IMG/VR virus record: IMGVR_UViG_3300037419_002279
Location: 1 to 64,000 of that record
DNA length: 64,000 nucleotides
Reading direction: 5' to 3' (one strand)
From: a virus
Taxonomy: Duplodnaviria; Caudoviricetes
Below are positions 35,893-56,037 of the stretch, one piece after another. Position 1 is the stretch's first letter. Each line of letters starts with the position of its first letter. Below the pieces are notes generated by a model, which was not told where the DNA came from, searched no databases, and was given only the letters and a program-made list of their open reading frames with translations. The position numbers were made by a program, and so were the translations under genes.

Positions 35893-36687
35893 ATGAACGC
35901 TGACGCGGCCGACGACGCTCCGGCCGGGGCGGCAAGCCTGATCGCAGGCTATGTCGCCGATTCGTATGAGGTACTTGCACAGATCGACATCGCCCAGCGC
36001 CGGCTTGCCGACATCAAAGACCGGCTGCCGGACGCGCTGCGGCCTGCTGCGGCAACGCTTACCGCGGAACAGCGGATCGCGCTGTTCGCCGAGTTCTACT
36101 GGCGGGCGACGGACCTAGCGAGCGAACCGGTGCTGCTCGGGCTCGGGTACACGTCGGTCGGCAGCGTCCTACCGGCGATCCCGCCAGGCCGGACCGGTGT
36201 GCCATGCCTAGGCTGCGGTGCGGACCTAAAGGCCCGCAGTCGGTCCCATAGGGCAGAAATTTGCAAAGCAGCGAATGAAGAGACCGAGCAACGGGCGCGT
36301 AACCGTCATTGGCTCAACCGCGCCCTTTACTGCGACCGCTGCTATGACCGCGCCAACAAAGCGCGCGACCGGGCCTGGGATCAAGAACAGGTCGAGCGGC
36401 AGCGGGCGTGGCAGCAGCGGCAGCGAGCCCTTCGCGCGATGCCGTTTGCTGAGTACCTGCGAACACCGGAATGGCGCGAAACGCGATCGGACGCCTTAGA
36501 GCGGGCGGGCTTCCGCTGTCAGCTATGCGCCGAAAAAGACCGATCGACGCTTGATGTCTATCACAACAGCTACGCCAGGATCGGTAACGAGGCGCCGGCC
36601 GACCTGATCGTGCTTTGCCGGCCGTGCTACGCGACAAACGGCCATGTTTTGCCGACGCCATCCGATCAGCAGGAGGCCCGGTCATGA
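35893..36687 (+). CDS. Protein with C-terminal HNH-like domain (catalytic His apparently replaced)
   Basis: YLRTPEW..R..ALERAGFRCQLC..LDVYHNSY..GNE..DLIVLCRPCY. Confidence 0.7.
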   Translation: MNADAADDAPAGAASLIAGYVADSYEVLAQIDIAQRRLADIKDRLPDALRPAAATLTAEQRIALFAEFYWRATDLASEPVLLGLGYTSVGSVLPAIPPGRTGVPCLGCGADLKARSRSHRAEICKAANEETEQRARNRHWLNRALYCDRCYDRANKARDRAWDQEQVERQRAWQQRQRALRAMPFAEYLRTPEWRETRSDALERAGFRCQLCAEKDRSTLDVYHNSYARIGNEAPADLIVLCRPCYATNGHVLPTPSDQQEARS

Positions 36688-37559
36688 GCCTCTTTGCTGT
36701 CATGAATGCCCTGATGACGAAGGGCCTGACCCCGAACGAAAGCCGGGTCTACGCCTACCTTGTCGGCCGCGGCAACGGTGTCCGGATGTGCTGGGCTGAA
36801 GTGCCCGATATCGCCGCAGACCTCGACATGACGCCTCGCACCGTCATGGCTTGCACCAAGGCGCTTGCAGCGAAGGACAAGCAGCTAATCACTGTGACCC
36901 GGCGGTACAAGGACAGCAACAACTACGCCGTCGTGGACCGCGACGGGCTTTACGACCGGCCGACTTACGCGAACGCCAAGCGCGCAGCCCAGGCGTCCGG
37001 CATCGATTGGGGTGCCGACCCGGAACAGACCGAGTCCGCTGACCTGAAAAAAACAGCAGATATGGCGCCCGATCCTGACCTGAAAAAAACAGCAGATGTG
37101 TCGCTCTCACCTGAAAAAGACGACATTCTGACCTGCAAAAGTACGCATTCTGACCTGAAAAAAACCGCACAAGAGTCAATAGACCAAGACTCTACCAAGG
37201 AAGATACCAAACACACACAGCGCGCGCGCGCGACGGCAAGCCCGTTTGCCGTCGCCGATCCGCCGGGGTGGGAAGCGTTCAAGGCGGCTTACCCGCCGCA
37301 CGACGGTAGCTGGCACGTCGCCCGGCTAGCCTACTGTCAGGCGCTCGCCGAAGGCGTTGACCCCGAGGTCATCGTCGCCGCCGCAAAGGCGTTCCCGTTC
37401 CGGCGCGACGCCGGCACCCGGTTCGTCATCCATCCCGCGACGTGGCTGCGCGAACGCCGATGGGAAACCGAGATCCCCGAACCCGAGCCGGAAGAGTCGC
37501 TGGCTGACCTGATCGCGGCGTCACAGGCCGAACGCGCCGCCCAGCAGAAGGTCGCGTGA
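36684..37559 (+). CDS. Replication initiator (lambda O-like, N-terminal wHTH)
   Basis: AGGAGG RBS; LTPNESRVYAYL..IAADLDMT.RTV; internal iterons; FVIHPATWLRERRWE. Confidence 0.8.
   Translation: MSLFAVMNALMTKGLTPNESRVYAYLVGRGNGVRMCWAEVPDIAADLDMTPRTVMACTKALAAKDKQLITVTRRYKDSNNYAVVDRDGLYDRPTYANAKRAAQASGIDWGADPEQTESADLKKTADMAPDPDLKKTADVSLSPEKDDILTCKSTHSDLKKTAQESIDQDSTKEDTKHTQRARATASPFAVADPPGWEAFKAAYPPHDGSWHVARLAYCQALAEGVDPEVIVAAAKAFPFRRDAGTRFVIHPATWLRERRWETEIPEPEPEESLADLIAASQAERAAQQKVA
37039..37169 (+). repeat. Replication-origin iterons
   Basis: CTGACCTGAAAAAAAC(A/C)GCA at 37039, 37075, 37150; degenerate copies at 37106 and 37128. Confidence 0.85.
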
Positions 37560-38661: not shown

Positions 38662-39483
38662 TTGAAACGATATCGCCGTCTGAAAGCAGGAGAAGTCGCC
38701 GCCATGATCCGCCGAGTCCCCTGGGACGGACCGAACCCGGCACCGGGCGAATTCCTCGCCGGCAAAGGCCGGTCGTATTTCCGCATCCGATCGGTCGTGC
38801 CGCTGGTCCGGCCGTCGCCCGACGGCGCGCGTTTATCGCTCGATCTGCTGCGTCAGGGCGCGTCCGATCTGCCCGACGGTGCCGTCGTGCACCCGCTGTC
38901 GCGCTATGCCGCATCGGATCCGGCCGGGCCGCCGCGCATCCGTCAGATCACCGACGGGCCGGCTGGCGTCATGCGCGACCGCTGGCGCGATCCGTCCGAC
39001 ACAAGGCCCACAGCCGCCGCCAGGCCGCGGCTGGTAACCGGCTACCGGTCGTCATGTCCGCTGCGGCGGATGGCGGCCGCAAAGAAATCGCACATCACCG
39101 ACATCCACATCGTCGCGGCCGACCATTTCCGCACGATGTATGACCTGGCCTATCTCGGCTACACGATGACCGCCGACGGGGTGAAAGTAGCCGCGGGCTA
39201 CGGGCCGCGCCCGGGGCCGTCGCAGGCCGCGCACGCGCAGTCAGCGGCGCGGGGATCGGTGCAGCGCGCGCTCGCCCGCTTCGCGCCGCCGCAGACCGCG
39301 ATGCTGACCGCGATCGTGCTGCAAAATTCCAGCCTCTATGCCTGGTGCGCCGAGGGTCGCCTGAACGCCTCGGTCGAAATGGGCAAGCTGATCGCGATCC
39401 TCGATATCCTGGCCGATCATTATGACCGTGAAGTGGATGCGCTGATGCAGACCGACGCGGCCCTGGTGCTCGAACGCGCCTAG
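38662..39483 (+). CDS. Late transcription regulator candidate (DUF6456-like)
   Basis: WRDPSD..TGYR..PLRRM..IT..H..AAD.FR; last gene of the replication operon. Confidence 0.6.
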   Translation: MKRYRRLKAGEVAAMIRRVPWDGPNPAPGEFLAGKGRSYFRIRSVVPLVRPSPDGARLSLDLLRQGASDLPDGAVVHPLSRYAASDPAGPPRIRQITDGPAGVMRDRWRDPSDTRPTAAARPRLVTGYRSSCPLRRMAAAKKSHITDIHIVAADHFRTMYDLAYLGYTMTADGVKVAAGYGPRPGPSQAAHAQSAARGSVQRALARFAPPQTAMLTAIVLQNSSLYAWCAEGRLNASVEMGKLIAILDILADHYDREVDALMQTDAALVLERA

Positions 39484-39924: not shown

Positions 39925-40806
39925 TTAAGCCTCGACGAGATCCCGCCAGACTTTGCCCTCAATCAACCCGGCGACCCTCTTGTGCCGGTCGAATTTGGCT
40001 TGACCGCGGCCGCCCTTCACGGCGCTATCCGCATGCGATGCCCAGTTGGTCAGCACCGAATAAAGCGTCCATGCGTTCGGACCCGATTGCGCCGATCCGT
40101 CGTCGCGGGCGCGTAGCCAAGCGTGCACCAGGTGATCCGTCAGCGAGTCAGTCGCTTGCGGTAGAGCTTTGCAGACCTGCATGGCCTGTTGGTCGCTAAT
40201 CGCGATCGTCGCCCATTCCTTCCAGCGCCGCGTCCGCTCGATGTGCTCTTCGGCGGCTTTAGTCAGGCCGGCGATAGCTGCCTTGACGTCAACGGCGCCG
40301 GTGTGCCGGGCAGAAAACTGCGCGTAATCCGTCCCGTGGATTGCCGTGTTTGCGCAGACGAACGTGTAGGCCCCGCACTGCCCCCGGAACCGAAGCGACC
40401 CATCATAGGAATTCATCATAATCAAAGCGAGGGCTACACTTACGCCCTTCTTAACTTCGATCTGATGGGCCGGAAGCAGGTACTGCCGGAAGCAGCGCGC
40501 ACCGTTGTTGGCGTAGTCGGTGCCGATCCGCATGCCTTCCAGATCCAGCGTGCTGGACTCTAGCGCTTCCTCAAAGGCGCCGAAGGCTTCCTCGTTGGTG
40601 ATCACCTTGTAGCTGTCGGTGGCGACATGCAGCGTATCGCCGGTGTCTTCGCGCACGATGCGCAGGTAGCCGGGCAGTTCGTGACCCTGTTCGTCGAACA
40701 GGCGCCGCGCCTTGACCGGGAAGAAGACCGGCTTGGCATGGTTCGCCGGGATGAAGCCGTACTTGTCCATCTGGTCGGCGTAGGAAGAAATCGCGTCTAA
40801 CGGCAT
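39925..40806 (-). CDS. DUF932/DUF945 family protein
   Basis: IVREDTG..L..DSYKVITN.EAF..NSYDGS..F..VCAN. Confidence 0.85.
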   Translation of the reverse strand: MPLDAISSYADQMDKYGFIPANHAKPVFFPVKARRLFDEQGHELPGYLRIVREDTGDTLHVATDSYKVITNEEAFGAFEEALESSTLDLEGMRIGTDYANNGARCFRQYLLPAHQIEVKKGVSVALALIMMNSYDGSLRFRGQCGAYTFVCANTAIHGTDYAQFSARHTGAVDVKAAIAGLTKAAEEHIERTRRWKEWATIAISDQQAMQVCKALPQATDSLTDHLVHAWLRARDDGSAQSGPNAWTLYSVLTNWASHADSAVKGGRGQAKFDRHKRVAGLIEGKVWRDLVEA

Positions 40807-42153: not shown

Positions 42154-44997
42154 ATGACCCAACTACAGATCGAATACAGGCCGGTAGAAGCCTTGATCCC
42201 GTATGCGCTGAACCCGAAAACGCATTCGGATGCGCAGATCGCCGCGATCGGCGAGTCGATGCGCGAATTCGGCTGGACGAACCCGGTGCTGATCGACGGC
42301 CGGGGCGGGATCATCGCCGGACACGGCCGCATCGCCGCGGCGAAGGCGCAGGGGATCAGCGACGTCCCCTGCATCGTCCTCGATCACCTGAATGACGCGC
42401 AGGTACGCGCCCTGGTCACGCTGGACAACTGGCTGACCGAACACGGCGCGTCCTGGAACCTGCCGCTGCTGCAAGGCGAGATTGCCGCGCTGTCGGACAT
42501 GAAGTTCGACCTCGAACGCTTCGGCATGACAGCGCCGAACCTGACCGCCGCCTTCCCGGGTCTGTTCGCCGCCGGCACCGGTGCAGCACCGCTGGCGGAA
42601 CGCACCGCCCCCGTCGGTAACCTGGCCGACCGCTTCGGCCTGCCGCCGTTTTCTGTCCTGTCCGCCCGCGACGGATGGTGGCAGGCACGCAAGCGGGCCT
42701 GGCTGCGCTTAGGCATCCGCTCCGAACTCGGCCGCGGCGTCGAAAACCCCGACGATCCGCAACTGACCTACAAAGGCCAGGCCAGCCTCAACGCGATCAC
42801 CGGTCAGCGCAAAGCCGGGCTGCTATACGGCGAACAGAGCGCCGAATTCGATCATTACCGCCGGCGCGAAGGCACCCGCCCAGCGCTTGCCGAAGAAGGC
42901 GACGCCCGGCAGGTGATCGGGACATCGATCTTCGATCCGGTGCTCTGCGAATTGGCCTATCGCTGGTTCTGCCCGCCCGGCGGTGCCGTCCTCGACCCGT
43001 TTGCCGGCGGATCGGTCCGCGGTGTTGTCGCCGCCTGGCTCGGCCGGCAGTATGTCGGCGTCGATCTGTCCGGCCGGCAGATCGCGGCAAACAGAGAACA
43101 ATGGGAGGCTATCCGCGAAGGCCGGCCGACAGCGAAGCCTGAACCCATCATCGAGGATCCTGCCGCGTTGACGCCGATCCAGGCCGTCGGCGACGTGCTG
43201 GTCAAACGCGATGACCTGTTCGAATTCGCCGGCGTACCCGGGGGCAAAGTCCGAACCTGTCTTGCCCTAGCCCGGGCCGCCCTTGCGGCAGGGCAAGGCG
43301 GGCTTGTCACCGCCGGGTCGCGGGCAAGCCCCCAGGTCAACATCGTCGCCCGCGTGGGCCGCGCCCTGGGCCTGCCGGTGCGGTGCCACACCCCGCAGGG
43401 CAAGCTGGCCCTTGAAGTCCAGGCCGCCCTCGAAGCAAGGGCAGAAGTCATCCAGCACAAAGCCGGGCACAACACCGTCATCGTCGCCCGCGCCCGCGAA
43501 GACGCCGCCGCCCGCGGCTGGGCGGAAATCCCCTTCGGCATGGAATGCCTCGAAGCGATCACCCAGACGCGGCGCCAGGTCGCGAACGTCCCGCCCGATG
43601 TCCGACGCATTGTCATCCCCGTCGGATCCGGCATGTCAGCCGCCGGCGTGCTCTGGGGCCTGATCGATCAGGGCCTGTCGATGCCGGTCATCGGCGTCGT
43701 CGTCGGCGCTGATCCCGCCGATCGGCTGGATCACCATGCGCCGCAGGACTGGCGCGACCGCATGACGCTGATCCCGTCCGGGTCGGACTATCACGAGCCG
43801 GCCGCGCAAACAGCGTTCGGACATCTCGACCTCGACCCCCACTACGAAGCGAAGTGCATCGATTTCCTTGAGCCCGGTGACCTGCTCTGGATCGTTGGCG
43901 TGCGCGCCACGTCCAGACTGGCGTCCCGGCCGGCGTCGACTTCAGTCGTGGCACCGTCGGCCGGGTCTGCCCTGCGCTGGCGCGTGGGCGCAAAGACGAT
44001 GACCGCCCGCCATGACTGCACCCTGTCCGGCATCCAGACCCGCTGCGGCGGCGGTTGCTGCCGCGCCGGGCCGTCCCGCAGTTACTGGCCGGCGCGCGCC
44101 TACGGCGATGTCTGCGGCAACCTCGGCCCGTCCGGCTGCACCCTGTCCCCGGACGACAAGCCGGTGACCTGCCTGCTCTATCCGCTGGTGGCCCACGACG
44201 ATAAGGGCTCGATCGTGCTGCATCATCGGACCCGGCTGCCGACGTCGGTCTGCCGCGGCAATTACGGCCAGGGGCCGATGCTGATCGATGCGATCGAAGG
44301 CAACCTGCGCACGCTGTTCGGCGATGCGCAATTCGAGCGGGTGCATGCCGAGGTCACCGCCGGGCGCGACAGCTATTTCGACGTCCCGCCCGATATCGCC
44401 GAAGCCGTCCGCCGCGAACACGGCTGGGCCGAGCATGCGATCAAGCCGGTGCCGCGGTCGCAGGCGGGGACGATACCAGAGTCCACACCGCCCGCGCGGC
44501 CCGATCCGGTCTGGATCGAAGGAGACTCACGTGCGATCGCCGATCTCCTGCCGGCGGATTTCGAAGCCGACTTCATCTGGACCTGCCCGCCCTACGCGGA
44601 CCTCGAAGTCTACAGCGACCATCCGGCCGATCTGTCGGCAATGTCAGACCCGGACTTTACTGACGCCTATCGGCAGATCATCGCCGCAGCCTGCGCGCGG
44701 CTGAAGCCGGACCGGTTCGCCGCGATTACCGTGGGCGAAGTGCGCGATGATCGGGGCATGTGCCGCAACCTGCCCGGCCTGACGATCGAGGCGTTCGAAG
44801 CGGCCGGCCTGAAGCTCTACAACGACGCGATCCTGGTCACCGCCGTCGGCAGCCTGCCGATCCGTGTCGGCCGGCAATTCACCGCCGCCCGCAAGCTCGG
44901 ACGGACCCATCAATCGGTGCTGGTGTTCATCAAGGGCGACCCGAAAGCGGCAACGGCCGCGTGCGGGGACGTCGAATTCGGGGACGCGCCCACATAG
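42154..44997 (+). CDS. ParB-like + amino-DNA-methyltransferase interrupted by PLP-enzyme and Cys-rich domains
   Basis: PYALNPKTH..FGWTNPVLID..IIAGHGR; DPFAGGS (42994); KRDDL..GGKVR (43246); CGGGCC..CLLYP; TCPPY (44581). Confidence 0.85.
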   Translation: MTQLQIEYRPVEALIPYALNPKTHSDAQIAAIGESMREFGWTNPVLIDGRGGIIAGHGRIAAAKAQGISDVPCIVLDHLNDAQVRALVTLDNWLTEHGASWNLPLLQGEIAALSDMKFDLERFGMTAPNLTAAFPGLFAAGTGAAPLAERTAPVGNLADRFGLPPFSVLSARDGWWQARKRAWLRLGIRSELGRGVENPDDPQLTYKGQASLNAITGQRKAGLLYGEQSAEFDHYRRREGTRPALAEEGDARQVIGTSIFDPVLCELAYRWFCPPGGAVLDPFAGGSVRGVVAAWLGRQYVGVDLSGRQIAANREQWEAIREGRPTAKPEPIIEDPAALTPIQAVGDVLVKRDDLFEFAGVPGGKVRTCLALARAALAAGQGGLVTAGSRASPQVNIVARVGRALGLPVRCHTPQGKLALEVQAALEARAEVIQHKAGHNTVIVARAREDAAARGWAEIPFGMECLEAITQTRRQVANVPPDVRRIVIPVGSGMSAAGVLWGLIDQGLSMPVIGVVVGADPADRLDHHAPQDWRDRMTLIPSGSDYHEPAAQTAFGHLDLDPHYEAKCIDFLEPGDLLWIVGVRATSRLASRPASTSVVAPSAGSALRWRVGAKTMTARHDCTLSGIQTRCGGGCCRAGPSRSYWPARAYGDVCGNLGPSGCTLSPDDKPVTCLLYPLVAHDDKGSIVLHHRTRLPTSVCRGNYGQGPMLIDAIEGNLRTLFGDAQFERVHAEVTAGRDSYFDVPPDIAEAVRREHGWAEHAIKPVPRSQAGTIPESTPPARPDPVWIEGDSRAIADLLPADFEADFIWTCPPYADLEVYSDHPADLSAMSDPDFTDAYRQIIAAACARLKPDRFAAITVGEVRDDRGMCRNLPGLTIEAFEAAGLKLYNDAILVTAVGSLPIRVGRQFTAARKLGRTHQSVLVFIKGDPKAATAACGDVEFGDAPT

Positions 44998-45163
44998 AAG
45001 ATCGGCCGGGTATGACCCCGGCCGCCGTGCTGCCCCCCTGGGGCCTGTTCTATTAGGTGAGGTTTGAGAGTCCCCGCGCGGCCTCGCAGAGACGGACACT
45101 GGACGCCGCCGCGGCGCCGCGGCGCAACTCACGAAGCGGGGAAGTCAGACCAGAAGTCTGACG

Positions 45164-47671: not shown

Positions 47672-48130
47672 ATGTCGGACGCCCCACGCGGACGCGGCCG
47701 CCCGCCGCATATCCCGACACCCGAACAGCGCCGGCTGGTGCAGGTGCTGCGCAGCAACGGCACCGCGCTGCGGGTCATCGCGCGCAACCTGTCCCTCGAT
47801 GTGACGACGCTGCGCAAAGCCTACAAAGACGAATTGCGCGAAGGCCATGAATCCGTCGTCGCCGCCGTCGGCGCGGCGATCGTGCAGCAAGCGCTGAACG
47901 GCAATGTGCACGCGGCCAAGTACTGGCTGTCCACCCACGGCGGTCCGGAATGGAAAATCGTCGAGGGCCGTCAGATCGGCGGCATGCCCGGCGCTGATCC
48001 GATCCCGATCCAGCAATCAGGCGAATCGCGCGTCGTTATCGTGCTGCCGGATAACGGCCGCGACCGGGCGGCGATCGGCGATGCGCTCGGCTTAGGCGAC
48101 ACCGCCGAGGGCCGGACATTGAATGACTAG
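47672..48130 (+). CDS. terS: Terminase small subunit
   Basis: GRPPHIPT.EQR..TLRKAYKDEL..AAKYWL; precedes terL. Confidence 0.8.
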   Translation: MSDAPRGRGRPPHIPTPEQRRLVQVLRSNGTALRVIARNLSLDVTTLRKAYKDELREGHESVVAAVGAAIVQQALNGNVHAAKYWLSTHGGPEWKIVEGRQIGGMPGADPIPIQQSGESRVVIVLPDNGRDRAAIGDALGLGDTAEGRTLND

Positions 48131-49529
48131 GGAAATCCGGCCGAACCCCGGACCGCAATCGGATTTTCTGGCAAATGCCGCGGACCTGACGATTTTCGGC
48201 GGCGCGGCCGGCGGTGGAAAAACCTGGGCGCTGCTCCTCGAACCGCTGCGCCACGTCACCACAAACCCTGCTTTCGCCGCGGTCTGCTTCCGCCGCACGA
48301 CGGTGCAGATCAGAAATCCCGGCGGGCTGTGGGATCAGTCAATGCGGCTATATCCGCTGATCGGCGGCATCCCGGCCGGACAGCCGCTCGAATGGCGCTG
48401 GAAAAACGGCGGGAAAATCAAATTCGCGCACCTCGAACACGAAAATAACAAACTCGACTGGCACGGCAGCGAAATCCCGCTGCTGCTGTTCGACGAACTG
48501 ACGCATTTTACCGCCACGCAGTTTTGGTATTTGTTGAGCCGCAATCGCTCGATGTCCGGCGTCGCCGGCTATGTCCGCGCATCCTGTAATGCCGACGCCG
48601 ATAGCTGGGTCGCACAACTGATCGAATGGTGGATCGACCAGACGACGGGCCTGCCGATCCGCGAACGCTGCGGCGCGTTGCGCTGGTTTGTCCGCATATC
48701 CGACGAAATGATCTGGGCGGATGATCCGGACACGCTGCGCCGCGATTATCCGGGCTCGCTGCCGAAGTCGCTGACGTTTATTGCCGCGACCCTCGATGAC
48801 AACCCCGCGCTAAATGCGGTCGATCCCGGCTACCGCGCGAACCTGATGGCGCTGCAACGCGTCGAGCGCGAACGGCTGCTCGGCGGCAATTGGCTGATCC
48901 GCGCGTCCGCCGGTAATTTCTTCCAGGCCGGCTGGTGCGAATTCATCGATGCGGCCCCCGCCGGGATGACCGAAGTGCGCGGATGGGATTTAGCAGGCAC
49001 GCGCGACGACGGCACGAATGACCCCGACTGGACGACCGGCACACGCATGGGCCGCACCCCTGACGGCCGCTACGTCGTGCTCGATCATGTCTGGATGCGC
49101 GGCACCCCGGGGCAGGTCGAACGGCTGATCTACAACACAGCGACTCAGGACGGGAAGAAGGTCGCGATCAGTCTGCCGAAGGATCCCGGACAGGCCGGCG
49201 TCGCACAGGTCCTGGCGTTGACTAAGATGCTCGCCGGCTGGATCGTCAAATCGTCACCCGAGTCAGGCGATAAGGAAACGCGCTTTTCCCCGTTCAGCGC
49301 CCAGGCCGAGGCCGGCAATGTGCTGGTGCTGCGCGGGCCGTGGATCCAGCGCTGGATCAGGCAACTCGAAGGCTTTCCGGAGGCGCCGCATGATGACGAT
49401 GCTGACAGCACCGCGCGCGCCTTCAACTTCCTTGCCGAGCGGCCGGCCGTGCGCCGCTTTTCCGATGCCGCCCTGCTGCGCGCGGCCCAGCGCCGCGACG
49501 GCGGCCCGGTTGTGAGCCGGCCGTTTTGA
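48123..49529 (+). CDS. terL: Terminase large subunit
   Basis: FGGAAGGGKT Walker A; LLFDELTHF Walker B; RGWDLA..HDDDADS nuclease. Confidence 0.95.
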   Translation: MTREIRPNPGPQSDFLANAADLTIFGGAAGGGKTWALLLEPLRHVTTNPAFAAVCFRRTTVQIRNPGGLWDQSMRLYPLIGGIPAGQPLEWRWKNGGKIKFAHLEHENNKLDWHGSEIPLLLFDELTHFTATQFWYLLSRNRSMSGVAGYVRASCNADADSWVAQLIEWWIDQTTGLPIRERCGALRWFVRISDEMIWADDPDTLRRDYPGSLPKSLTFIAATLDDNPALNAVDPGYRANLMALQRVERERLLGGNWLIRASAGNFFQAGWCEFIDAAPAGMTEVRGWDLAGTRDDGTNDPDWTTGTRMGRTPDGRYVVLDHVWMRGTPGQVERLIYNTATQDGKKVAISLPKDPGQAGVAQVLALTKMLAGWIVKSSPESGDKETRFSPFSAQAEAGNVLVLRGPWIQRWIRQLEGFPEAPHDDDADSTARAFNFLAERPAVRRFSDAALLRAAQRRDGGPVVSRPF

Positions 49530-51502
49530 TTTCCTGGGCAACGATCACCGCCGCGGCCAGCCTGCTGCTGGGGCGTACCGCGCCGCCCGCACCGGCCCCG
49601 GCCCCGGTGCCCGAGCCGCGCCGCATTCGCCACACAGCACCCGGCCCGTCGCGCCCGACCGTGACGCCCTGGCAGATCGCAGCACCCCCGCCCGGCGTCG
49701 TGCCCGAAGGGGCGGCGACGATGGCGCAGGACGATGCCCTGACCGGGCTGTATGCCTACGCGTCCGCGTCGAACGTCTGGGGCGAAGGGCTGCAATGGTT
49801 CGGCTATCCGTTCCTCGCCGAACTCGCGCAGCGTGCCGAATACCGGCAGATCAGCGAGACGCTTGCGAAGGAAATGACCCGCAAATGGATCACGATCCAG
49901 GCCACCGGGTCCGACGACGGCAAGGCCGATAAGGTCCGCGCGCTCGAGCTCGCCTTCAAGCGGCTGAAGGTCCAGCAGGCATTCCGCCGTGCCGCCGAAT
50001 TGGACGGATTATTCGGCCGGGCACAAATCTATATCGACACCGGCTGCACGGATGATCCGGACGAACTGCGCACGCGGCTGACGCCGACGCCGGAAAAGAT
50101 CAGCCGCGGCGGGCTGAAGGGCCTGCGCGTCGTCGAGCCGCTGTGGACCTATCCGACCGACTACAACAGCATCGACCCGCTGCGCCCGAATTACTTCGTC
50201 CCGCGCGCCTGGTTCGTGCAGGGCCGGCACATCGATGCGACACGGCTGCTGACCTTTGTCAGCCGCGAAATGCCCGACATGCTGAAGCCGGCCTATAGCT
50301 TCGGCGGCCTGTCGATGTCGCAACTCGCCTACCCGTATGTCGAAAATTGGCTCCGGACTCGGCAGTCCGTCAGCGACATGCTGCACACCTTCAGCGTCAC
50401 CGGGCTGAAGACGAATATGCAGGTGATGACCGACGACGAGGTGTTTCAGAAGGCGCAGTTCTTCAACAATTTCCGCGACAACCGCGGCCTGATGATGATC
50501 GACAAAGAGGCCGACGACTTCTTCAACATCAGTGCACCGTTGGGTGGGCTCGATCACCTGCAAGCGCAGGCGCAAGAGCAGATGGCTTCGGTCGCGCGCA
50601 TCCCGCTTGTCGTGCTGCTGGGCATCACGCCGTCGGGGCTGAACGCATCATCGGACGGCGAAATCCGCACCTTCTATGCGTGGATCGAGGCGCAGCAGGA
50701 AGCGCTGTTCGCCGACCATCTAAACACCGTCCTTAAATACGTGCAGCTATCCGAATTCGGCGAGGTCGATCCCGAGATCGGTTTCCGCTTCAACCCGTGC
50801 TGGACGCTGGACGAAGAAAAGCAGGCGACGGTGCGCAAGACGCAGGCCGACACCGCGGCCGTCTACATTCAAGCCGGGGTGTTGTCGCCGCACGAAGAGC
50901 GCGAACGGATCGCGCAGGACGAGGACAGCCCGTATGCCGCGCTGGATCTCGCCGATCGCGAAGACCCGACGCCGCCGGCTGATCCGGCCGCTGAGGGCGA
51001 TCCACTGTCCGAACCTGACAACGACAATCAGCCGCCGCCGGGACGTCCGGACCTGCCCCACCCCGCCGGGGTAGGCCGTCCGGATGTGGGCCGGCCTGGT
51101 GGCCCCGGGCGGCCGGCTGCCAGCCGCCCGGTCGGCCCCGGACGCCCGGACGTGGCCCGCGGTGCGCAGGACATCAGCCTGTGGGATCTCGACTGGCTGC
51201 TCGACAAATACGCCCATGTCTTTGGACAGCGCCCGTCCTGGGACATCCCGCCGCACGCCTATCCGCAGGCGGCGCTGGCGCTGACGCAGGCGATCGCCAC
51301 CGGCGAGCCGGTCGATGACGACGCCGAATTCGACGACGCCGAGGCCGGGGGATTTGGTGAGGACGCCGGCTTCGAGGAAGCCGACCACCCCCGTGACCAG
51401 GGCGGCAAGTTCACCTCAGGCGCCGGATCGGGCGGCGGTTCGACAAAAGGTCCGACCGAAAAGGCTAAAGGTCGAACTAGCATTCAGCGACGGCCGGCGT
51501 AG
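49526..51502 (+). CDS. Portal protein (DUF1073) with long C-terminal extension
   Basis: GYPFLAELAQRAEY..EMTRKWI..IPLVVLLGITPSGLNASSDGEI; extension ends in HPRDQGGKFTSG. Confidence 0.9.
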   Translation: MISWATITAAASLLLGRTAPPAPAPAPVPEPRRIRHTAPGPSRPTVTPWQIAAPPPGVVPEGAATMAQDDALTGLYAYASASNVWGEGLQWFGYPFLAELAQRAEYRQISETLAKEMTRKWITIQATGSDDGKADKVRALELAFKRLKVQQAFRRAAELDGLFGRAQIYIDTGCTDDPDELRTRLTPTPEKISRGGLKGLRVVEPLWTYPTDYNSIDPLRPNYFVPRAWFVQGRHIDATRLLTFVSREMPDMLKPAYSFGGLSMSQLAYPYVENWLRTRQSVSDMLHTFSVTGLKTNMQVMTDDEVFQKAQFFNNFRDNRGLMMIDKEADDFFNISAPLGGLDHLQAQAQEQMASVARIPLVVLLGITPSGLNASSDGEIRTFYAWIEAQQEALFADHLNTVLKYVQLSEFGEVDPEIGFRFNPCWTLDEEKQATVRKTQADTAAVYIQAGVLSPHEERERIAQDEDSPYAALDLADREDPTPPADPAAEGDPLSEPDNDNQPPPGRPDLPHPAGVGRPDVGRPGGPGRPAASRPVGPGRPDVARGAQDISLWDLDWLLDKYAHVFGQRPSWDIPPHAYPQAALALTQAIATGEPVDDDAEFDDAEAGGFGEDAGFEEADHPRDQGGKFTSGAGSGGGSTKGPTEKAKGRTSIQRRPA

Positions 51503-51546: not shown

Positions 51547-52845
51547 GTGCCCTTCAAGTCCTGGAAGCCCCCGCACAACGCGGCGGCGTGGAAGCTGCTC
51601 GCCCATGTCGGGCCGGCGTTCGACGAACCGCCGCTGCCGCCGGTGCCGAAGGGCATGAAGCAGGGCGCGGGCGTCATCGTCCGCGAGCCCGACGGCCGCA
51701 TCTGGCTGATGCATCCGAAAAAGGGTTACGGCGGCTACAAGGCGACCTTCCCCAAGGGCACAGTCGAGTCCGACATCGGGCCGCGCGCAACCGCGATCAA
51801 AGAGGCCTACGAAGAAACCGGCCTGCATGTCCGCCTGACCGGCTACGCGGGCGATGTGAAGCGCACGACGTCGGTCGGCCGCTACTACTACGCCGAACGG
51901 GTCGGCGGCACGCCGGCCGATGCCGGCTGGGAAGCGTCCGGCGTCAGCCTGGCCGAACCGGACGCGCTGCATAAGCTGCTGAACGCCCCGCACGATAAGG
52001 CGCTGGCGTCCGCGGTGACCGGCGGGGCGCCCCTGCCGCCGGTAGAGTCCGCACCCGACAAAGCGCCGACAAAAACCGACGACGCGCCGACGAAAGCCGG
52101 CGGCGTTCCTGAAAAGGCCCCGGCAAATCCGACAAAGGCACAGGATGTTCCCGACATAAGCGCCTGGAAGAAGGTCGGCGCGCAACTCGGCTCGAACCCC
52201 GGCGGCACCTACACCGACCCGTCGGGCGCGAAGTGGTACGCGAAGCAGCAGAAGTCCGAACATCACGCGCGCAACGAGGCGCTCGCCTCGGCGCTGTATC
52301 AGGCCGCCGGTTCGCCCGTCGTCAACAGCAAGCTGGTCAAGTTCGGCGACACCTGGGGCACGGCGACGCCCTGGCTCGACGGCGAGAAGCACGACATCGG
52401 ATCGAAGCCTTCGCAGGCGGATCGCGACGCCGCGGCGGAAGACTTCGCGACGCATGCCTGGCTGTCGAACCGCGACGCGGTCGGCCTCGATTATACGAAC
52501 CAGGCGAAAATCGACGGCAAGATGCGCACGATGGACGTCGGCGGCGCGCTGGAATTCCGTGCGCAAGGCGGGAAGAAGCCCAGCTTCGGCGATACCGCGG
52601 ACGAATGGGACAGCCTGCGCAACGCCGGGATCAACCCGCAGACGCATGCCGTCTACGGCGCGATGACGCCGGCACAACTGAAGGCCTCGGCCGCGAAGGT
52701 CGCAGCGGTCCCGGATCAGACAATCCGGACCCTGGTCGATCAGCATGGGCACGGCGACGCGGCGGCAAAGAAGGCGCTCGCCGAGAAGCTGATCGCGCGC
52801 AAGGCCGACATCGCGGCCCGGGCCGCCGCCCTGTCCGACAAATAG
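51547..52845 (+). CDS. NUDIX hydrolase + HipA/PI3-4-kinase-like protein (frame open from 51481, probably continuing the portal extension)
   Basis: FPKGTVE..AIKEAYEETGL Nudix box; LGSNPGG..WYAK..NEALAS.LY..NRD..N..MDVGG. Confidence 0.8.
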   Translation: MPFKSWKPPHNAAAWKLLAHVGPAFDEPPLPPVPKGMKQGAGVIVREPDGRIWLMHPKKGYGGYKATFPKGTVESDIGPRATAIKEAYEETGLHVRLTGYAGDVKRTTSVGRYYYAERVGGTPADAGWEASGVSLAEPDALHKLLNAPHDKALASAVTGGAPLPPVESAPDKAPTKTDDAPTKAGGVPEKAPANPTKAQDVPDISAWKKVGAQLGSNPGGTYTDPSGAKWYAKQQKSEHHARNEALASALYQAAGSPVVNSKLVKFGDTWGTATPWLDGEKHDIGSKPSQADRDAAAEDFATHAWLSNRDAVGLDYTNQAKIDGKMRTMDVGGALEFRAQGGKKPSFGDTADEWDSLRNAGINPQTHAVYGAMTPAQLKASAAKVAAVPDQTIRTLVDQHGHGDAAAKKALAEKLIARKADIAARAAALSDK

Positions 52846-52867
52846 TCGAACCGCGGAAGGGGAAGGT

Positions 52868-55702
52868 ATGACCGATGCCCTGTTCCCGCGGGCCGGCACC
52901 TGCCGCCGTGCGATCCCCCGCCTGATCCTGCCCCGCCCCGGGCTGATGGCGCGCGACGACTGGCAGGCGCACCTGCACCCGCGCGACGAGACGGGCAAGT
53001 TCACGTCCGGCCCCGGATCGCATGCAGAGTCGACGCCGAAGCATCCGGCCTGGATGGGCAAGACCGGCCAGGCGTTCTACGACGAAGTCGTCAACGGCCT
53101 CGGCTCGAAGCATCACGACGAAATTGCCCAGGCGCTGAAGGACAAGGCCGCGACGCTGAAGGCCGGCGACTATTCGTCCTATGCGAACAAGCTGCTGGCG
53201 CACGTCGAACAGGCGCACGGGCTGGAAAAGGGCAAGCTCGGCAAGGCAAAGCCGATGGGCAAGGCGGCCCCGCCGGCCGCGAAGGAACCGCCGGCACCGG
53301 CGCCCGAACCCGCGAAGGCACCCGACGTCGACGCCGAGTTCAAGTCGATGGTCGACGAAGCCCTGGCGACCGGAAGTCCGCAGCAGCACGCCGAATTCCT
53401 CGAAGGTCTGATCCCGCACACCGAAGGCGCGAAGAAGGCATACCTTGAGGGTCAGCTTGCTGATCTGAAGGGCAAGATCGCCGCCGGCACGGCGAAGGGC
53501 GAAGCGACCGAAGCGCCGCTATCGGCGGAAAAGGCCGCGCGCAAAGCCGAGATCGAAGCCGCCGAGGAACCGGCTGCACCGCCGCCGGAAATCGCAGCGC
53601 TGCCCGATCCGGCGACGAAGGTGCAGAAGAATATTCACGACCTGATGCAGTCCGACCTGCCGGTCGAGAGCATCAAGCAGAAGATCGCGAACATCGCCGA
53701 GGCGTCGCAGCACCCGCCGAACAAGGCGTATGCCGAACAGGCCCTGGCGCTGCTGGAACAACAGGCCGGCACAGCCGCGCCGTCGATGCAGGACGAAGCC
53801 TACGCCGAAGCGTCGAAGGCGCTCACGGAAAAGGGCAACATCGGCTTCTGGCTTGACCTGGCGAACAGCAACGGCGTCGATCCGGACGCCGCGGTCGGGA
53901 TCAAGCAGGCGATCGCCGAATGGCAGGACGCCAATCCGCCCGACGACGATGAGCCCGCGTTCTTCGCGCCGGCGGAACCTGAAGCGCCCGAACCGGCGGC
54001 GCCGATGACGACCGAACAGGTCGACTCCCTCTATCCGGACGTGTCGGTCGACCTGAAAAGCGCATGGAATGAAGAGATCGCGAAGAACAAGAAAGGCGCG
54101 ATCAAGGACCTTGAGAACGTCATCAAGCATTTTTCCGACAAAACGCCCGAGGCGGAAGTCTCGTGGATGAAGGACAAGGTCGCGGCGCTGAAGGGCGAAG
54201 GCACCGCGCCGGCCCCGCCGGCCGACACCGATCTTCCGAAGCCGGCGAACCCCGCGCAAGAAATCATGGCGTCGGCCCTGACAAAGACCGGCGTCTTTGC
54301 GGACGCATCGCCCGAGACCACCGAGGCGGCGTTCCAGCAGTGGCTCGCCAGCCCGCACATGGCGCCGGAAGACAAGGAATACGCGAAGAAGGTCATCGCG
54401 AAGATGGGCGCCGAGACCGGCGCCGCCCCGGCCGCCCCGGCGCCGATGACGTCAGAACAGGTCGACGCCGCGCATCCGGATGTCACGGAAACCCTGAAGA
54501 AGAACTGGAATCAGTCGATCGCGCAGGATCCGGCAGGGTCGGCGGCAACCTTGCAGAAATACCTAGAGGTCGGCGCCGGTCTGAGCCCGACGCTCAAAGC
54601 CTGGATGAAGGACAAGGTGGCAGCCCTGAACGCCGCCGGTCACGGCACTGCTGCCCCGGCCGAACCCCCGGCGCCACCGCCCGAGCCGCCGGTCAGCCTG
54701 CCCGCGCCGCACCCGTCGTCGAAGGGCCAGACCCTGGTGCACGGCATTGCATCCGGCGAAGGCAGCAAGGCCGACAAGATCGCCAAGATCAAGCAGGCGG
54801 TCGCCGACGACCCGCACCACTTCCCGGCCGGCGGCTACGCGAAGAAGTACGCCGATCAGCTTATCGCGGCCCTGGGCGGCGACCAGACGGCGCAGCAGGC
54901 GGCGCCCAAGCCGGCCGCAGCCGCGGCACCGGCCGCGCCCGCAGCAAAGCCCGCAGCGGCCGACCCGGCGCTGCACACGGCCCCGGCCGGTTCGGCGACG
55001 CACGAGGACGATCACGCCGCGCCGATCCCGGCGTATTTCGTCAACCAGGGCATGAAGGCGAAAAGCCGGGTCAGCGCGCACGACACGCTGAAGCGCATCC
55101 AGAACATCAAGGCGGTTGCCGCGAACGCAAAGACGGTCACGTCGATCACCACGGCGGCGGCGAAGAAGCTCTGCCCGACGGCGACATCGGCCTGGTGGAA
55201 GACAAACGCCGATGCCTCGGTGATCAGCGCAATCCAAAGCTACTCGGGTAGCGGCTACGGCACCATGAACGCGGTGCTGCGCGGCGACAGCAACGACCCG
55301 GCTGCGCTGGCGAAGATCAACCATATCGACGATATGTTCGAGCACGACGAGGCCGCCGTGACCGACGACGTGATCGTGCACCGCGGGGAAAATCTGACGG
55401 ACGACACCGTCATTGCCAAATGGGAAGCGGCGCTGAAGGCCGGCAAGCCGGTGCGCGAGATCAAGCACGGCTTCACGTCCGCATCCCTTGCCGATCACGC
55501 GGCCTTTTCCCACCACAACGTCCAGTATCAGATCACCGTCCGCAAAGGGTCGCGGATGCTGGGCATCGGCGTCAAAGGCGTCTCGGGTTACGGCTCGGAC
55601 GAAAACGAAGTGCTGCTGCGCCACGGCCAGACGTTCGAAATCTACGACATCACACGAGCGAGCAACGGCCGCGTGTTCGTCAAGATGGCCGTCACAACTT
55701 AG
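52868..55702 (+). CDS. Head-associated protein with C-terminal ADP-ribosyltransferase (VIP2-like, R-S-E)
   Basis: HPRDETGKFTSG N-terminus; SYSGSGYGTMN.VLR, HRG (55379), FTSAS (55472), ENE (55601). Confidence 0.85.
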   Translation: MTDALFPRAGTCRRAIPRLILPRPGLMARDDWQAHLHPRDETGKFTSGPGSHAESTPKHPAWMGKTGQAFYDEVVNGLGSKHHDEIAQALKDKAATLKAGDYSSYANKLLAHVEQAHGLEKGKLGKAKPMGKAAPPAAKEPPAPAPEPAKAPDVDAEFKSMVDEALATGSPQQHAEFLEGLIPHTEGAKKAYLEGQLADLKGKIAAGTAKGEATEAPLSAEKAARKAEIEAAEEPAAPPPEIAALPDPATKVQKNIHDLMQSDLPVESIKQKIANIAEASQHPPNKAYAEQALALLEQQAGTAAPSMQDEAYAEASKALTEKGNIGFWLDLANSNGVDPDAAVGIKQAIAEWQDANPPDDDEPAFFAPAEPEAPEPAAPMTTEQVDSLYPDVSVDLKSAWNEEIAKNKKGAIKDLENVIKHFSDKTPEAEVSWMKDKVAALKGEGTAPAPPADTDLPKPANPAQEIMASALTKTGVFADASPETTEAAFQQWLASPHMAPEDKEYAKKVIAKMGAETGAAPAAPAPMTSEQVDAAHPDVTETLKKNWNQSIAQDPAGSAATLQKYLEVGAGLSPTLKAWMKDKVAALNAAGHGTAAPAEPPAPPPEPPVSLPAPHPSSKGQTLVHGIASGEGSKADKIAKIKQAVADDPHHFPAGGYAKKYADQLIAALGGDQTAQQAAPKPAAAAAPAAPAAKPAAADPALHTAPAGSATHEDDHAAPIPAYFVNQGMKAKSRVSAHDTLKRIQNIKAVAANAKTVTSITTAAAKKLCPTATSAWWKTNADASVISAIQSYSGSGYGTMNAVLRGDSNDPAALAKINHIDDMFEHDEAAVTDDVIVHRGENLTDDTVIAKWEAALKAGKPVREIKHGFTSASLADHAAFSHHNVQYQITVRKGSRMLGIGVKGVSGYGSDENEVLLRHGQTFEIYDITRASNGRVFVKMAVTT

Positions 55703-55754
55703 GCTAGCTCCGATACCCGCGATTGCTATACAATCGCAACGGAAGGATTAGGAC

Positions 55755-55943
55755 ATGGCAAGGCAGCCCGACCCGGCTGACGATCGACAGGACAGCCCCG
55801 GCGTCTTCATCGTCGGCGACGAAGTCATCTACGACGGTGAAGCCGACAAGCTCGGCCTGCCGAGCAAGGTAGGGCAGAAAATCCCCCTGCCGGAAGGTTG
55901 GGATGACAGCCGGACCGACGACACCGGCGATGGCCGGGCCTGA
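55755..55943 (+). CDS. Small acidic protein (candidate immunity)
   Basis: GGA RBS; 62 aa, Asp-rich; directly after the ART gene. Confidence 0.55.
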   Translation: MARQPDPADDRQDSPGVFIVGDEVIYDGEADKLGLPSKVGQKIPLPEGWDDSRTDDTGDGRA

Positions 55944-56037
55944 CTTCAGCCTCTGGCCGCTGGCCGTCATCCTGATCATCGCCGCAGCAGGTGGCGGCCT
56001 CGTTTTCCTGATCGCCCTGCGCGCCGGTGCAATGTGA
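55930..56037 (+). CDS. 35-aa single-TM protein
   Basis: MAGPDFSLWPLAVILIIAAAGGGLVFLIALRAGAM; not in ORF track. Confidence 0.5.
   Translation: MAGPDFSLWPLAVILIIAAAGGGLVFLIALRAGAM

What the first reader, a model, noticed from the sequence alone, without database searches (positions are those of the whole stretch)
42154..44997. DNA methyltransferase split by a PLP-dependent enzyme and a Cys-rich domain
Seen in one 947-aa frame: ParB-like N-terminus; MTase motif I (DPFAGGS, 42994); a complete fold-type II PLP-like domain (VKRDDL..GGKVR, Lys at 43246; IVIPVGSGMSAAG; LDPHYEAKC, to about 43900); a Cys-rich domain (C..CGGGCC..C..C..KP..CLLYP..C, about 44010-44420); and then motif IV (TCPPY, 44581). 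Established: these PLP motifs resemble ACC deaminase/D-cysteine desulfhydrase, and amino-MTases carry their target-recognition domain between motifs I and IV. Inference: a single-chain base-hypermodification enzyme whose chemistry goes beyond simple methylation (for example SAM- or amino-acid-derived adducts).
Basis: partly seen in the sequence, partly recalled or inferred. Interest (0 to 1): 0.75.

Follow-up and report, generated by a model that had tools for sequence, protein, structure and literature searches.

The report
Phage DNA methylase with PLP insert
One phage gene joins a DNA-loading domain, a DNA methyltransferase, a vitamin-B6 (PLP) enzyme and a cysteine-rich metal-binding domain; the PLP part is most closely related to phage enzymes that trim amino acids attached to DNA bases, so the protein probably makes an undescribed DNA modification rather than plain methylation.

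Summary
Window 42154-44997 (+) is one intact 947-aa gene with this order: ParB-like domain, MTase N-half (DPFAGGS), PLP domain (Lys365), 8-Cys domain, MTase C-half (TCPPY).

- The MTase is a circularly permuted beta-class amino-MTase. The insert sits at the junction of its two halves, not in a target-recognition domain.
- The PLP domain has the ACC-deaminase/D-Cys-desulfhydrase fold. Its closest characterised relatives are ViI gp226 (phrog_3650) and M6 gp52 (phrog_7093). Both are PLP decarboxylases that act on amino acids already attached to DNA bases.
- The three modules (MTase, PLP, Cys) occur in hundreds of metagenomic phage proteins, in at least 9 domain orders and in every pairwise fusion. 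They also occur as separate adjacent genes, for example Mycobacterium phage Vincenzo gp1/gp2.
- This genome lacks the 5-hmdU pathway, so the PLP substrate must come from the MTase module or from free metabolites.

My best reading (about 0.45) is post-replicative hypermodification. The simplest route is SAM-derived aminocarboxypropyl transfer followed by decarboxylation. The main rival (about 0.3) is plain methylation with an accessory PLP function. I found no literature on this system. It can be tested in cultured phages.

The parts
42154..42558 (+). ParB/Srx-like N-terminal domain (residues 1-135, GHGR motif)
   Evidence: PHROG 15396, 620 and 930 match at E 5e-60 to 2.5e-27. Pfam ParB_N scores 19.7-21.7 bits, below its 26.3 cut-off. 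The AF2 model has pLDDT about 90 here.
42601..43143 (+). MTase N-half (MTn). It holds the conserved PPFSVL..RKRAW helix, a disordered linker (residues 196-256), motif X-like SIFDPVLCELAYRWF, and motif I DPFAGGS (base 42994).
   Evidence: Pfam N6_N4_Mtase matches residues 272-308 to profile positions 178-214 of 221. A homologous stand-alone MTase aligns its motif I half to the C-terminal part of PDB 2zie. D281, P282, F283 and G286 are invariant.
43156..43923 (+). Compact fold-type II PLP domain (residues 335-590). Schiff-base Lys365 is at 43246-43248. Also present: SPQ (392-394), phosphate loop GSGMS (491-495) and YEAK (564-567).
   Evidence: Pfam PALP E 1.5e-11. phrog_3650 E 3e-35 and phrog_7093 E 8e-14. 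Foldseek finds D-Cys desulfhydrase 4d8t at E 5.8e-11, TM 0.66. The GGK lysine aligns with the GNK PLP lysine of 4d8t. pLDDT is 88-98 over most of the domain.
43966..44478 (+). Eight-cysteine metal-binding domain (residues 605-775; Cys 622, 631, 635, 636, 654, 662, 673, 700; KPVTCLLYP motif)
   Evidence: All 8 Cys are invariant in 9-13 homologs. Pfam DUF3109 matches weakly at E 0.022. Relatives carry PF11307 in precomputed annotation. The ESM Atlas lead is PF03692 CxxCxxCC at score 0.93. The family has 339 representative clusters, mostly stand-alone proteins of about 177 aa.
44497..44997 (+). MTase C-half (MTc, residues 782-947) with motif IV TCPPY (base 44581) followed by ADLEVYSD, plus the stop codon
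   Evidence: phrog_498 and phrog_12517 match residues 782-942. A homologous MTase aligns this half to the N-terminal SPPY half of PDB 2zie. C811, P812, P813 and Y814 are invariant.
45003..45024 (.). G+C-rich hairpin just after the stop, terminator-like
   Evidence: This is a consensus scan only.

Best explanation
The gene encodes an all-in-one, post-replicative DNA-modification enzyme of a temperate-type tailed phage. I propose the following division of labour.

1. A ParB-like domain brings the protein to DNA.
2. A circularly permuted beta-class amino-methyltransferase (motif I DPFAGGS, motif IV CPPY) binds SAM and flips out the target base.
3. A compact PLP enzyme sits at the junction of the two MTase halves. 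It belongs to the phage clade of ViI gp226 and M6 gp52, which decarboxylate amino acids attached to DNA bases.
4. An 8-Cys (Zn or Fe-S) domain acts as an optional third component.

The mechanism I think most likely is inferred, not shown. The MTase-fold module places an amino-acid-type group on an exocyclic amine of A or C. The simplest source is the 3-amino-3-carboxypropyl (acp) group of SAM, which would release MTA instead of SAH. The PLP domain then forms a Schiff base with the free alpha-amine of that adduct and decarboxylates it to an aminoalkyl (aminopropyl) group. The resulting cationic modification would shield phage DNA from host nucleases.

What is shown: the domain identities, the conservation of both active sites, and the recurrent genetic coupling of the three modules. 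What is inferred: the substrate, the group transferred and the product.
For: 1. Both catalytic centres are invariant across 48 homologs.

2. The PLP domain's best family matches are phage families, not cellular enzymes. It hits phrog_3650 at E 3e-35 and phrog_7093 at E 8e-14. ViI gp226 is the archetype of phrog_3650 (E 2.5e-241) and M6 gp52 of phrog_7093 (E 3.6e-159). Profile comparisons give 98% and 94.6% probability, with the Schiff-base Lys, SPQ, GYNS, GSG and YE.K motifs shared. Both enzymes were shown biochemically to decarboxylate O-serinyl-T and C-alpha-glycinyl-T in DNA (PMC8989533).

3. The domains are genetically coupled in the Rosetta-stone sense.
- The PLP module, 60-69% identical throughout, is fused to this MTase in at least 9 orders.
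- MT-Cys, PALP-Cys and triple fusions all exist.
- PALP, Cys and MT are three consecutive genes in L072.
- 72 of 80 PALP-anchored IMG/VR loci have the MTase fused or within 8 kb.

4. The window's genome is 91% complete and has no aGPT-Pplase2, 5-HMUDK or ThyA-like gene. I recognised no other DNA-modifying enzyme among the 20 non-structural ORFs scanned. The amino-acid substrate therefore has to come from SAM or from free metabolites.

5. Rare relatives carry amine-acylating partners. One has PALP fused to a GNAT (P0211). Another PALP gene lies next to an MprF-type aminoacyl-transferase-like gene (L054).
Against: 1. The MTase core is indistinguishable between PALP-fused, PALP-adjacent and PALP-less members such as phiFL3A gp36 and B054 gp77. 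They share the same SIFDP, DPFAGGS and CPPYADLEVYSD motifs.

2. On the MTase tree, PALP association changes at least 25 times, against a shuffled mean of 46. The MTase chemistry therefore does not seem to change with the partner. If PALP-less members are ordinary methylases, then so is this one, and m6A or m4C offers no amine for PLP.

3. One relative (P0020) fuses PALP-Cys to a canonical Dam-type DPPY methylase.

4. No member of this MTase family or of this PALP subclade has been assayed.

5. Decarboxylation is extrapolated from relatives that are only 25-28% identical.

6. The evidence for tailoring domains is thin: single clusters, one Pfam hit below its cut-off, and an amidoligase lead that was not confirmed.
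Confidence: 0.45

Rival explanations
1. The enzyme is a plain protective N6-adenine or N4-cytosine methyltransferase. The PLP domain works on a small molecule linked to methylation rather than on DNA. For example, it could decarboxylate or otherwise destroy the product inhibitor SAH, which is itself an amino acid tied to a nucleoside, so that a whole phage genome can be methylated quickly.
For: The MTase core is identical in style to PALP-less family members. PALP is gained and lost repeatedly on the MTase tree. In bacterial genomes, 59 of the 80 loci kept (57 MT only, 2 MT plus Cys) have the MTase without PALP within 3 kb. A PALP-Cys module is also fused to a canonical Dam-type DPPY methylase. 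That suggests the partner needs 'a SAM-using adenine methylase', not a special MTase.
Against: I know of no PLP-dependent SAH- or SAM-degrading enzyme with this fold. The closest characterised relatives act on DNA-bound adducts. This reading does not explain the GNAT and aminoacyl-transferase-like partners, nor why the 8-Cys protein belongs to the same triad.
Confidence: 0.3
2. The PLP domain attaches an amino acid itself. As in cysteine synthase or tryptophan synthase beta, it would form an aminoacrylate from serine, O-acetylserine or cysteine. The exocyclic amine of the base flipped out by the MTase module, or a methylated or thiolated intermediate, would add to it. The 8-Cys domain would help in sulfur or redox handling.
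For: The fold-type II scaffold has a conserved Lys, Ser and Gly loop. The nearest cellular structures are D-cysteine desulfhydrases, which carry out beta-eliminations. The genome has no other enzyme to attach an amino acid.
Against: Characterised members of the phage clade are decarboxylases, not beta-replacement enzymes. This route would leave the conserved SAM site with no clear role. The two active sites would also need to share one flipped base, for which there is no evidence. The interdomain geometry of the model is unreliable (pTM 0.52).
Confidence: 0.12
3. The PLP-like and Cys-rich domains are catalytically silent. They would serve as DNA-binding, specificity or oligomerisation modules of an ordinary methylase.
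For: The insert lies at a permissive junction of the permuted MTase. Metal-binding Cys clusters often bind DNA.
Against: Every PLP catalytic residue is invariant, and the domain is the most conserved part of the protein: 60-69% identity against 45-60% for the MTase halves. It also works as a free-standing protein of about 250 aa in hundreds of clusters and in any position relative to the MTase. That fits an enzyme, not a specificity insert.
Confidence: 0.08
4. The fusion is an assembly or gene-calling artefact that joins separate genes.
For: The record is a metagenomic IMG/VR contig. The three modules do occur as separate genes elsewhere.
Against: There is no stop or frameshift over 2,844 bases. 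The two MTase halves flank the insert in frame. The same architecture occurs in about a dozen independent clusters and in cultured phages Pam4, ZS04 and R6L (without the Cys domain). A 95-96% identical copy lies on another contig.
Confidence: 0.01

Closest known systems
ViI gp226 (phrog_3650) and M6 gp52 (phrog_7093): PLP-dependent decarboxylases of thymidine hypermodification (Lee et al. 2021, PMC8989533)
   Same: They share the compact ACC-deaminase-like fold-type II scaffold. They share the Schiff-base Lys in a G-x-K-x-R motif and the SPQ, GYNS, P-x-GS-G and Y-E/D-x-K motifs. They are phage-specific. HMM and profile matches are E 3e-35 and 8e-14, with 98% and 94.6% probability.
   Different: Identity is only about 25-28%. 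[quoted passage not shown] Here the partner is an amino-methyltransferase, usually in the same polypeptide. The substrate and reaction have not been tested.
Beta-class N6-adenine/N4-cytosine DNA methyltransferases (Pfam N6_N4_Mtase; PDB 2zie TTHA0409; CcrM)
   Same: The catalytic core is homologous. The motif X/I half and the motif IV-VIII half both align to 2zie, and the SAM motif DPFAGGS is present.
   Different: The core is circularly permuted, with motif I before motif IV. Motif IV is CPPY instead of (D/N/S)PPY in 71 of the 76 MTase ORFs checked. There is no recognisable TRD between the halves. No member of this permuted family has an experimentally assigned product that I could find.
Phage ParB-methyltransferase fusions (phrog_498; surveyed in PMC12704722)
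   Same: A ParB/Srx N-terminal domain is followed by an N6_N4-type MTase. The gene lies just upstream of the terminase genes, as in phiFL3A, Vincenzo and ZS04.
   Different: That survey does not mention PLP or Cys-cluster inserts. Here about 450 residues of two extra domains are inserted inside the MTase.
ACC deaminase and D-cysteine desulfhydrase (PDB 1j0a, 1tzk, 4d8t)
   Same: These are the best solved-structure matches (Foldseek E 5.8e-11 to 1e-8, TM about 0.6-0.69). The PLP Lys, the catalytic Ser and the Tyr-Glu pair align.
   Different: The domain is about 80 residues shorter. NCBIfam scores are far below the family cut-offs, so it is not a member.
acp-transferring SAM enzymes (Tyw2, Tsr3, TapT/YfiP). 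This comparison rests on my own knowledge and PMC7026641; it is a functional analogy only.
   Same: They offer a precedent that SAM-binding enzymes can transfer the 3-amino-3-carboxypropyl group to a nucleobase. Tyw2 has a class I MTase fold.
   Different: I tested no sequence relationship. All known cases act on RNA. None is coupled to a decarboxylase.

Membership tests
Fold-type II PLP enzymes (Pfam PALP, PF00291) | HMM score above the gathering cut-off | tested here: met
   41.2 bits for the whole protein and 44.6 bits for the domain alone, against a cut-off of 35.
Fold-type II PLP enzymes (Pfam PALP, PF00291) | Schiff-base lysine and glycine-rich phosphate loop at the homologous positions | tested here: met
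   GGK365 aligns to the GNK PLP lysine of 4d8t, and GSGMS aligns to the SGSAGT loop. Both are invariant in 48 fused and 29 stand-alone homologs.
ACC deaminase / D-cysteine desulfhydrase (TIGR01275, NF003030, NF010646) | NCBIfam score above the curated cut-off | tested here: not met
   13-23.4 bits against cut-offs of 289-610. Only the fold is shared.
Phage DNA-adduct PLP decarboxylases (ViI gp226 = phrog_3650; M6 gp52 = phrog_7093) | Sequence membership at PHROG/profile level | tested here: met
   The domain hits phrog_3650 at E 3e-35 and phrog_7093 at E 8e-14. gp226 and gp52 are the archetypes of these families. hhalign gives 98% and 94.6% probability.
Phage DNA-adduct PLP decarboxylases (ViI gp226 = phrog_3650; M6 gp52 = phrog_7093) | Genomic partnership with 5-hmdU DNA kinase, aGPT-Pplase and dUMP hydroxymethylase | tested here: not met
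   The 91%-complete genome has no match to M6 gp51, M6 gp54 or PF00303.
Phage DNA-adduct PLP decarboxylases (ViI gp226 = phrog_3650; M6 gp52 = phrog_7093) | Decarboxylation of an amino acid attached to a DNA base | not testable with these tools
   This needs biochemistry.
Beta-class amino-MTases (Pfam N6_N4_Mtase, PF01555) | SAM motif I (F-x-G-x-G type) and HMM match | tested here: met
   DPFAGGS is present. The score is 28.5 bits against a cut-off of 26.7, but only profile positions 178-214 match. Both halves align to PDB 2zie.
Beta-class amino-MTases (Pfam N6_N4_Mtase, PF01555) | Motif order IV...TRD...X-I | tested here: not met
   The order here is X-I then IV, a circular permutation.
Beta-class amino-MTases (Pfam N6_N4_Mtase, PF01555) | Catalytic tetrapeptide (D/N/S)PP(Y/F/W) | tested here: inconclusive
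   The motif is CPPY, with Cys in the first position. It appears in 71 of the 76 MTase ORFs checked and also in PALP-less phage members. Whether Cys supports methyl transfer is unknown.
ParB/Srx N-terminal domain (PF02195) | HMM match and GxxR motif | tested here: inconclusive
   Pfam scores 19.7-21.7 bits, below the 26.3 cut-off. PHROG ParB families match at E 5e-60 to 2.5e-27, and GHGR is present.
YkgJ / CxxCxxCC (PF03692) and DUF3109 (PF11307) cysteine-cluster proteins | HMM score above cut-off | tested here: inconclusive
   DUF3109 scores 15 bits against a cut-off of 33.5. Relatives carry PF11307 in precomputed annotation. The ESM Atlas's nearest named clusters are PF03692, at score 0.93 with 187 of 256 features shared.
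YkgJ / CxxCxxCC (PF03692) and DUF3109 (PF11307) cysteine-cluster proteins | Eight conserved cysteines including a C-x3-CC and a C-x-LYP block | tested here: met
   All 8 Cys are invariant in 13 homologs. Whether the metal is Zn or Fe-S cannot be tested here.

The most novel reading that the evidence does not exclude
An amino-methyltransferase fold has been recruited to transfer the 3-amino-3-carboxypropyl group of SAM onto a DNA base. A fused gp226-type PLP enzyme then decarboxylates it on the DNA, giving N-(3-aminopropyl)-dA or -dC. This would be a new class of DNA hypermodification. It would be made by one polypeptide from two universal cofactors, and it would be present in hundreds of uncultured phages and in cultured phages of Mycobacterium, Pseudanabaena and Erythrobacter.
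Probability: 0.3. Interest if true: 0.9.

Novelty: new variant of a known kind. Interest (0 to 1): 0.72.

Why it matters
All known amino-acid-derived phage DNA hypermodifications start from 5-hydroxymethyl pyrimidines made at the nucleotide level. A system in which a SAM-dependent MTase-fold enzyme partners with the same PLP enzyme clade would be a second, independent entry into such chemistry, probably on adenine or cytosine amines.

It is widespread. At 90% identity there are at least 448 fused clusters and at least 932 shorter ones. The system is also self-contained in one gene, which would make it easy to move into other hosts as a DNA-labelling or restriction-evasion tool.

It also gives a testable function to genes now annotated 'carboxylate deaminase', 'nucleoside deaminase' or 'pyridoxal-phosphate dependent enzyme' in cultured phages. 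Examples are Vincenzo and AlanGrant gp2, Pam4 gp70 and ZS04 gp7.

Even if the product is only m6A or m4C, a PLP enzyme dedicated to a methylase would be a new kind of cofactor housekeeping.

Tried and rejected
- **Target-recognition-domain reading.** I rejected it. The junction equals the old termini of a permuted beta-class MTase, and PALP-less relatives have no insert there.
- **CPPY as a marker of PALP-linked new chemistry.** I rejected it. PALP-less phiFL3A gp36 and B054 gp77 also have CPPY.
- **Part of the 5-hmdU pathway.** I rejected it.
- **Fold of the Cys domain.** The domain-only AF2 model was poor (pLDDT 66.8). VIA-align against 48,161 chains gave nothing above Z 2.2. No conclusion about the fold is possible.
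- **Amidoligase identity of the 290-aa C-terminal extension in P0026, P0060 and P0097.** The ESM Atlas lead scored 0.96. It was not confirmed by PF12224 in four records. Those four records were not shown to encode this extension, so that test bears little on it. Precomputed Pfam on 5 stand-alone homologs and a PDB profile search did not confirm it either. I keep it as a lead only.
- **Link to a characterised E. coli ParB-methylase.** Only the ParB part matches in E. coli genomes, and the downstream gene is unrelated.
- **Literature.** Nine full-text searches and targeted reading found no description of an MTase-PLP fusion. Iyer et al. 2013 (NAR 41:7635) is not held, so I could not check it.
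- **Complex prediction.** I did not use it. The many natural fusions already imply physical association.
Full report
**Observation.** Window 42154-44997 (+) is an uninterrupted 947-codon frame. Its ATG follows a GGCGGGG ribosome-binding-like run and an AT-rich spacer. A G+C-rich hairpin follows the stop. The record is a 73,182-bp IMG/VR viral contig estimated 91% complete. Nearby genes are a replication initiator (36615-37559), small and large terminase (47672-49529), portal (49526-51502) and an ERF recombinase. The gene therefore lies in the usual place of phage ParB-methylases, just upstream of the packaging genes.

**Anatomy.** Pfam finds PALP (residues 347-535, above cut-off), the motif I end of N6_N4_Mtase (272-308) and a weak ParB_N. 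PHROGs finds ParB-like families and the ParB-methylase family phrog_498 in three separate stretches. It also finds phrog_3650 and phrog_7093 over the PLP part. An AlphaFold2 model built on 48 homologs has mean pLDDT 82.4. It shows well-folded blocks at 1-135, 257-322, 335-590, 605-775 and 782-940, separated by low-confidence linkers. Its pTM of 0.52 means the relative placement of domains is not reliable.

**The methyltransferase.** A stand-alone member of the same MTase family aligns to the solved beta-class enzyme TTHA0409 (2zie) in two swapped pieces. Its C-half matches the N-terminal SPPY half of 2zie, and its N-half matches the C-terminal motif I half. The family is thus a circular permutation of the beta class. 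In relatives without the insert the two halves abut within about ten residues. The insert therefore sits at the joined former termini, not in a target-recognition domain. Motif IV is CPPY in 71 of 76 family members examined, including members in phages with no PLP gene. I found no experimentally characterised member.

**The PLP domain.** Its fold matches D-cysteine desulfhydrase and ACC deaminase (Foldseek E 5.8e-11, TM about 0.66). The GGK lysine aligns with their PLP lysine. NCBIfam scores for those families are far below cut-off, and the domain is about 80 residues shorter.
- The best family matches are phage families: phrog_3650 (E 3e-35) and phrog_7093 (E 8e-14).
- Salmonella phage ViI gp226 (Vi01_182) is the archetype of phrog_3650 (E 2.5e-241).
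- Pseudomonas phage M6 gp52 is the archetype of phrog_7093 (E 3.6e-159).
- Profile comparison of 29 stand-alone homologs with gp226 and gp52 gives 98% and 94.6% probability. The Lys, SPQ, GYNS, GSG and Y-E/D-x-K motifs are shared.
- Lee et al. 2021 showed with purified proteins that gp226 and gp52 are PLP enzymes. They decarboxylate O-serinyl-thymidine and C-alpha-glycinyl-thymidine within DNA, and they need a free alpha-amine on the adduct (PMC8989533).

The domain's nearest characterised relatives are therefore DNA-hypermodification enzymes.

**The Cys domain.** Eight cysteines, a C-x3-CC block and a KPVTC-x-LYP block are invariant. Pfam gives only a weak DUF3109 hit. Relatives carry PF11307 in precomputed annotation, and the ESM Atlas points to viral PF03692 (CxxCxxCC) clusters. 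A profile search of 1.84 billion representatives finds 339 clusters. Of the 134 newly returned among the best 150, 120 are free-standing proteins of about 177 aa. The fold search was uninformative. I read it as a Zn or Fe-S binding accessory protein of unknown activity.

**Comparative genomics.**
- Searching the insert region returned at least 448 longer clusters and at least 932 shorter ones. The candidate lists were capped.
- Mapping five domain probes on 120 homologs shows one PLP module, 60-69% identical and the best-conserved part, joined to this MTase in at least nine orders. These include MTn-PALP-MTc (commonest), MTn-PALP-Cys-MTc (this gene and about a dozen others), MTn-MTc-Cys-PALP, MTn-MTc-PALP(-Cys), MTn-Cys-PALP-MTc, Cys-PALP...MT and PALP-MT. 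One protein has PALP-Cys ahead of a Dam-type DPPY methylase.
- MT-Cys and PALP-Cys fusions without the third partner also exist.
- Of 80 PALP-anchored IMG/VR loci, 55 have PALP fused to the MTase, 17 have a separate MTase gene within 8 kb, and 8 have none. L072 has PALP, Cys and MT as three consecutive genes.
- Cultured examples: Pseudanabaena phage Pam4 gp70 and Erythrobacter phages ZS04 and R6L carry fused forms without Cys. In Mycobacterium phages Vincenzo and AlanGrant, gp1 (ParB-MTase) is followed by gp2. gp2 is annotated 'carboxylate deaminase' or 'nucleoside deaminase' and matches the PLP profile at 99.85% probability.

**What argues for caution.** The MTase core of PALP-fused, PALP-adjacent and PALP-less members is the same at every conserved motif. 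On a tree of 150 MTase C-halves, the presence of PALP needs at least 25 changes, against a shuffled mean of 46; well-supported branches force at least 4. In bacterial genomes, 59 of the 80 loci kept have the MTase without PALP within 3 kb, 2 of them with the Cys domain. PALP is therefore an optional, frequently exchanged partner, and the MTase chemistry probably does not differ with or without it.

**Mechanism.** The genome lacks the 5-hmdU route, and I recognised no other modifying enzyme among the 20 non-structural ORFs I scanned. The PLP enzyme's substrate must therefore arise from the MTase module or from common metabolites. The PLP clade needs an alpha-amino acid tethered to a nucleobase. 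The simplest such adduct a SAM enzyme can make is the 3-amino-3-carboxypropyl group. Decarboxylation would give an aminopropyl base. PALP-less phages would then stop at the acp stage, or the whole CPPY family might be unusual. Rare partners that acylate amines fit a free-amine product, but this evidence is thin: GNAT fused to PALP in P0211, and an MprF-type transferase-like gene next to PALP in L054 with a weak hit in P0103.

The main rival is ordinary m6A or m4C methylation with the PLP domain acting on SAH or SAM. It is favoured by the unchanged MTase core and by the Dam-type fusion. I put 0.45 on hypermodification beyond methyl (0.3 on the acp/aminopropyl route specifically), 0.3 on plain methylation with an accessory PLP role, 0.12 on direct beta-replacement, and 0.08 on silent domains.

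**Novelty.** Nine full-text searches and targeted reading found no description of this fusion or of the triad. The recent ParB-fold survey lists ParB-MTase fusions but no PLP. [quoted passage not shown] Iyer et al. 2013 could not be read. I class this as a new variant of a known kind: phage post-replicative DNA hypermodification using gp226/gp52-type PLP enzymes, here coupled to a methyltransferase fold.

**Earlier scan notes.** The scan had already noted this same stretch, read in another window of the same genome, with the same idea. It added no independent evidence.

Noticed in passing
L085:1406-2275 (Mycobacterium phage Vincenzo gp2; identical in AlanGrant): This gene is annotated 'carboxylate deaminase' in Vincenzo and 'nucleoside deaminase' in AlanGrant. 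It is a homolog of the ViI gp226 PLP decarboxylase family (phrog_3650, E 2.7e-106) and lies directly after the ParB-MTase gp1 and before the terminase. It offers a tractable M. smegmatis system for this question.
   Followed up: partly
L045:5917-10740: One 253-kb IMG/VR contig carries three tandem ParB-MTase genes of this permuted family. Only the middle one holds the PLP insert.
   Followed up: no
P0112 (946 aa): An MT...PALP fusion protein is itself interrupted by an intein-like element (Hint_2 plus LAGLIDADG/Hom_end hits at residues about 287-560) between the MTase and PLP parts.
   Followed up: no
P0020 (1513 aa): This giant protein has PALP-Cys, then a Dam-type D12 methylase (DPPY at 689), a second DPPF motif at 983 and a C-terminal XkdF-type protease domain.
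   Followed up: partly
P0026, P0060, P0097 C-terminal ~290 aa; stand-alone P0244-P0248: A conserved extra domain follows PALP in some ParB-MT-PALP proteins. It has invariant E-x-E, H-x-H and E-F-R-like blocks. The ESM Atlas points to viral Amidoligase_2 clusters, but Pfam and PDB searches did not confirm this.
   Followed up: partly
window 52001-56000: This stretch has a strong positive AT skew (0.29-0.34) over the 944-aa ORF at 52868-55702, in the head-gene region. That is far above the rest of the window.
   Followed up: no
L181:2622-4257 (E. coli STEC384 prophage): The E. coli relative of the ParB part is a ParB/Srx protein with no MTase. It is followed by an unrelated 287-aa hypothetical gene and then the terminase. 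The ParB module therefore pairs with different enzymes at the same prophage position.
   Followed up: partly
window 39925-40806 (-) and 38662-39483 (+): DUF932 (phrog_1221) and DUF6456 proteins lie just upstream of the modification gene. Their function is unknown.
   Followed up: no
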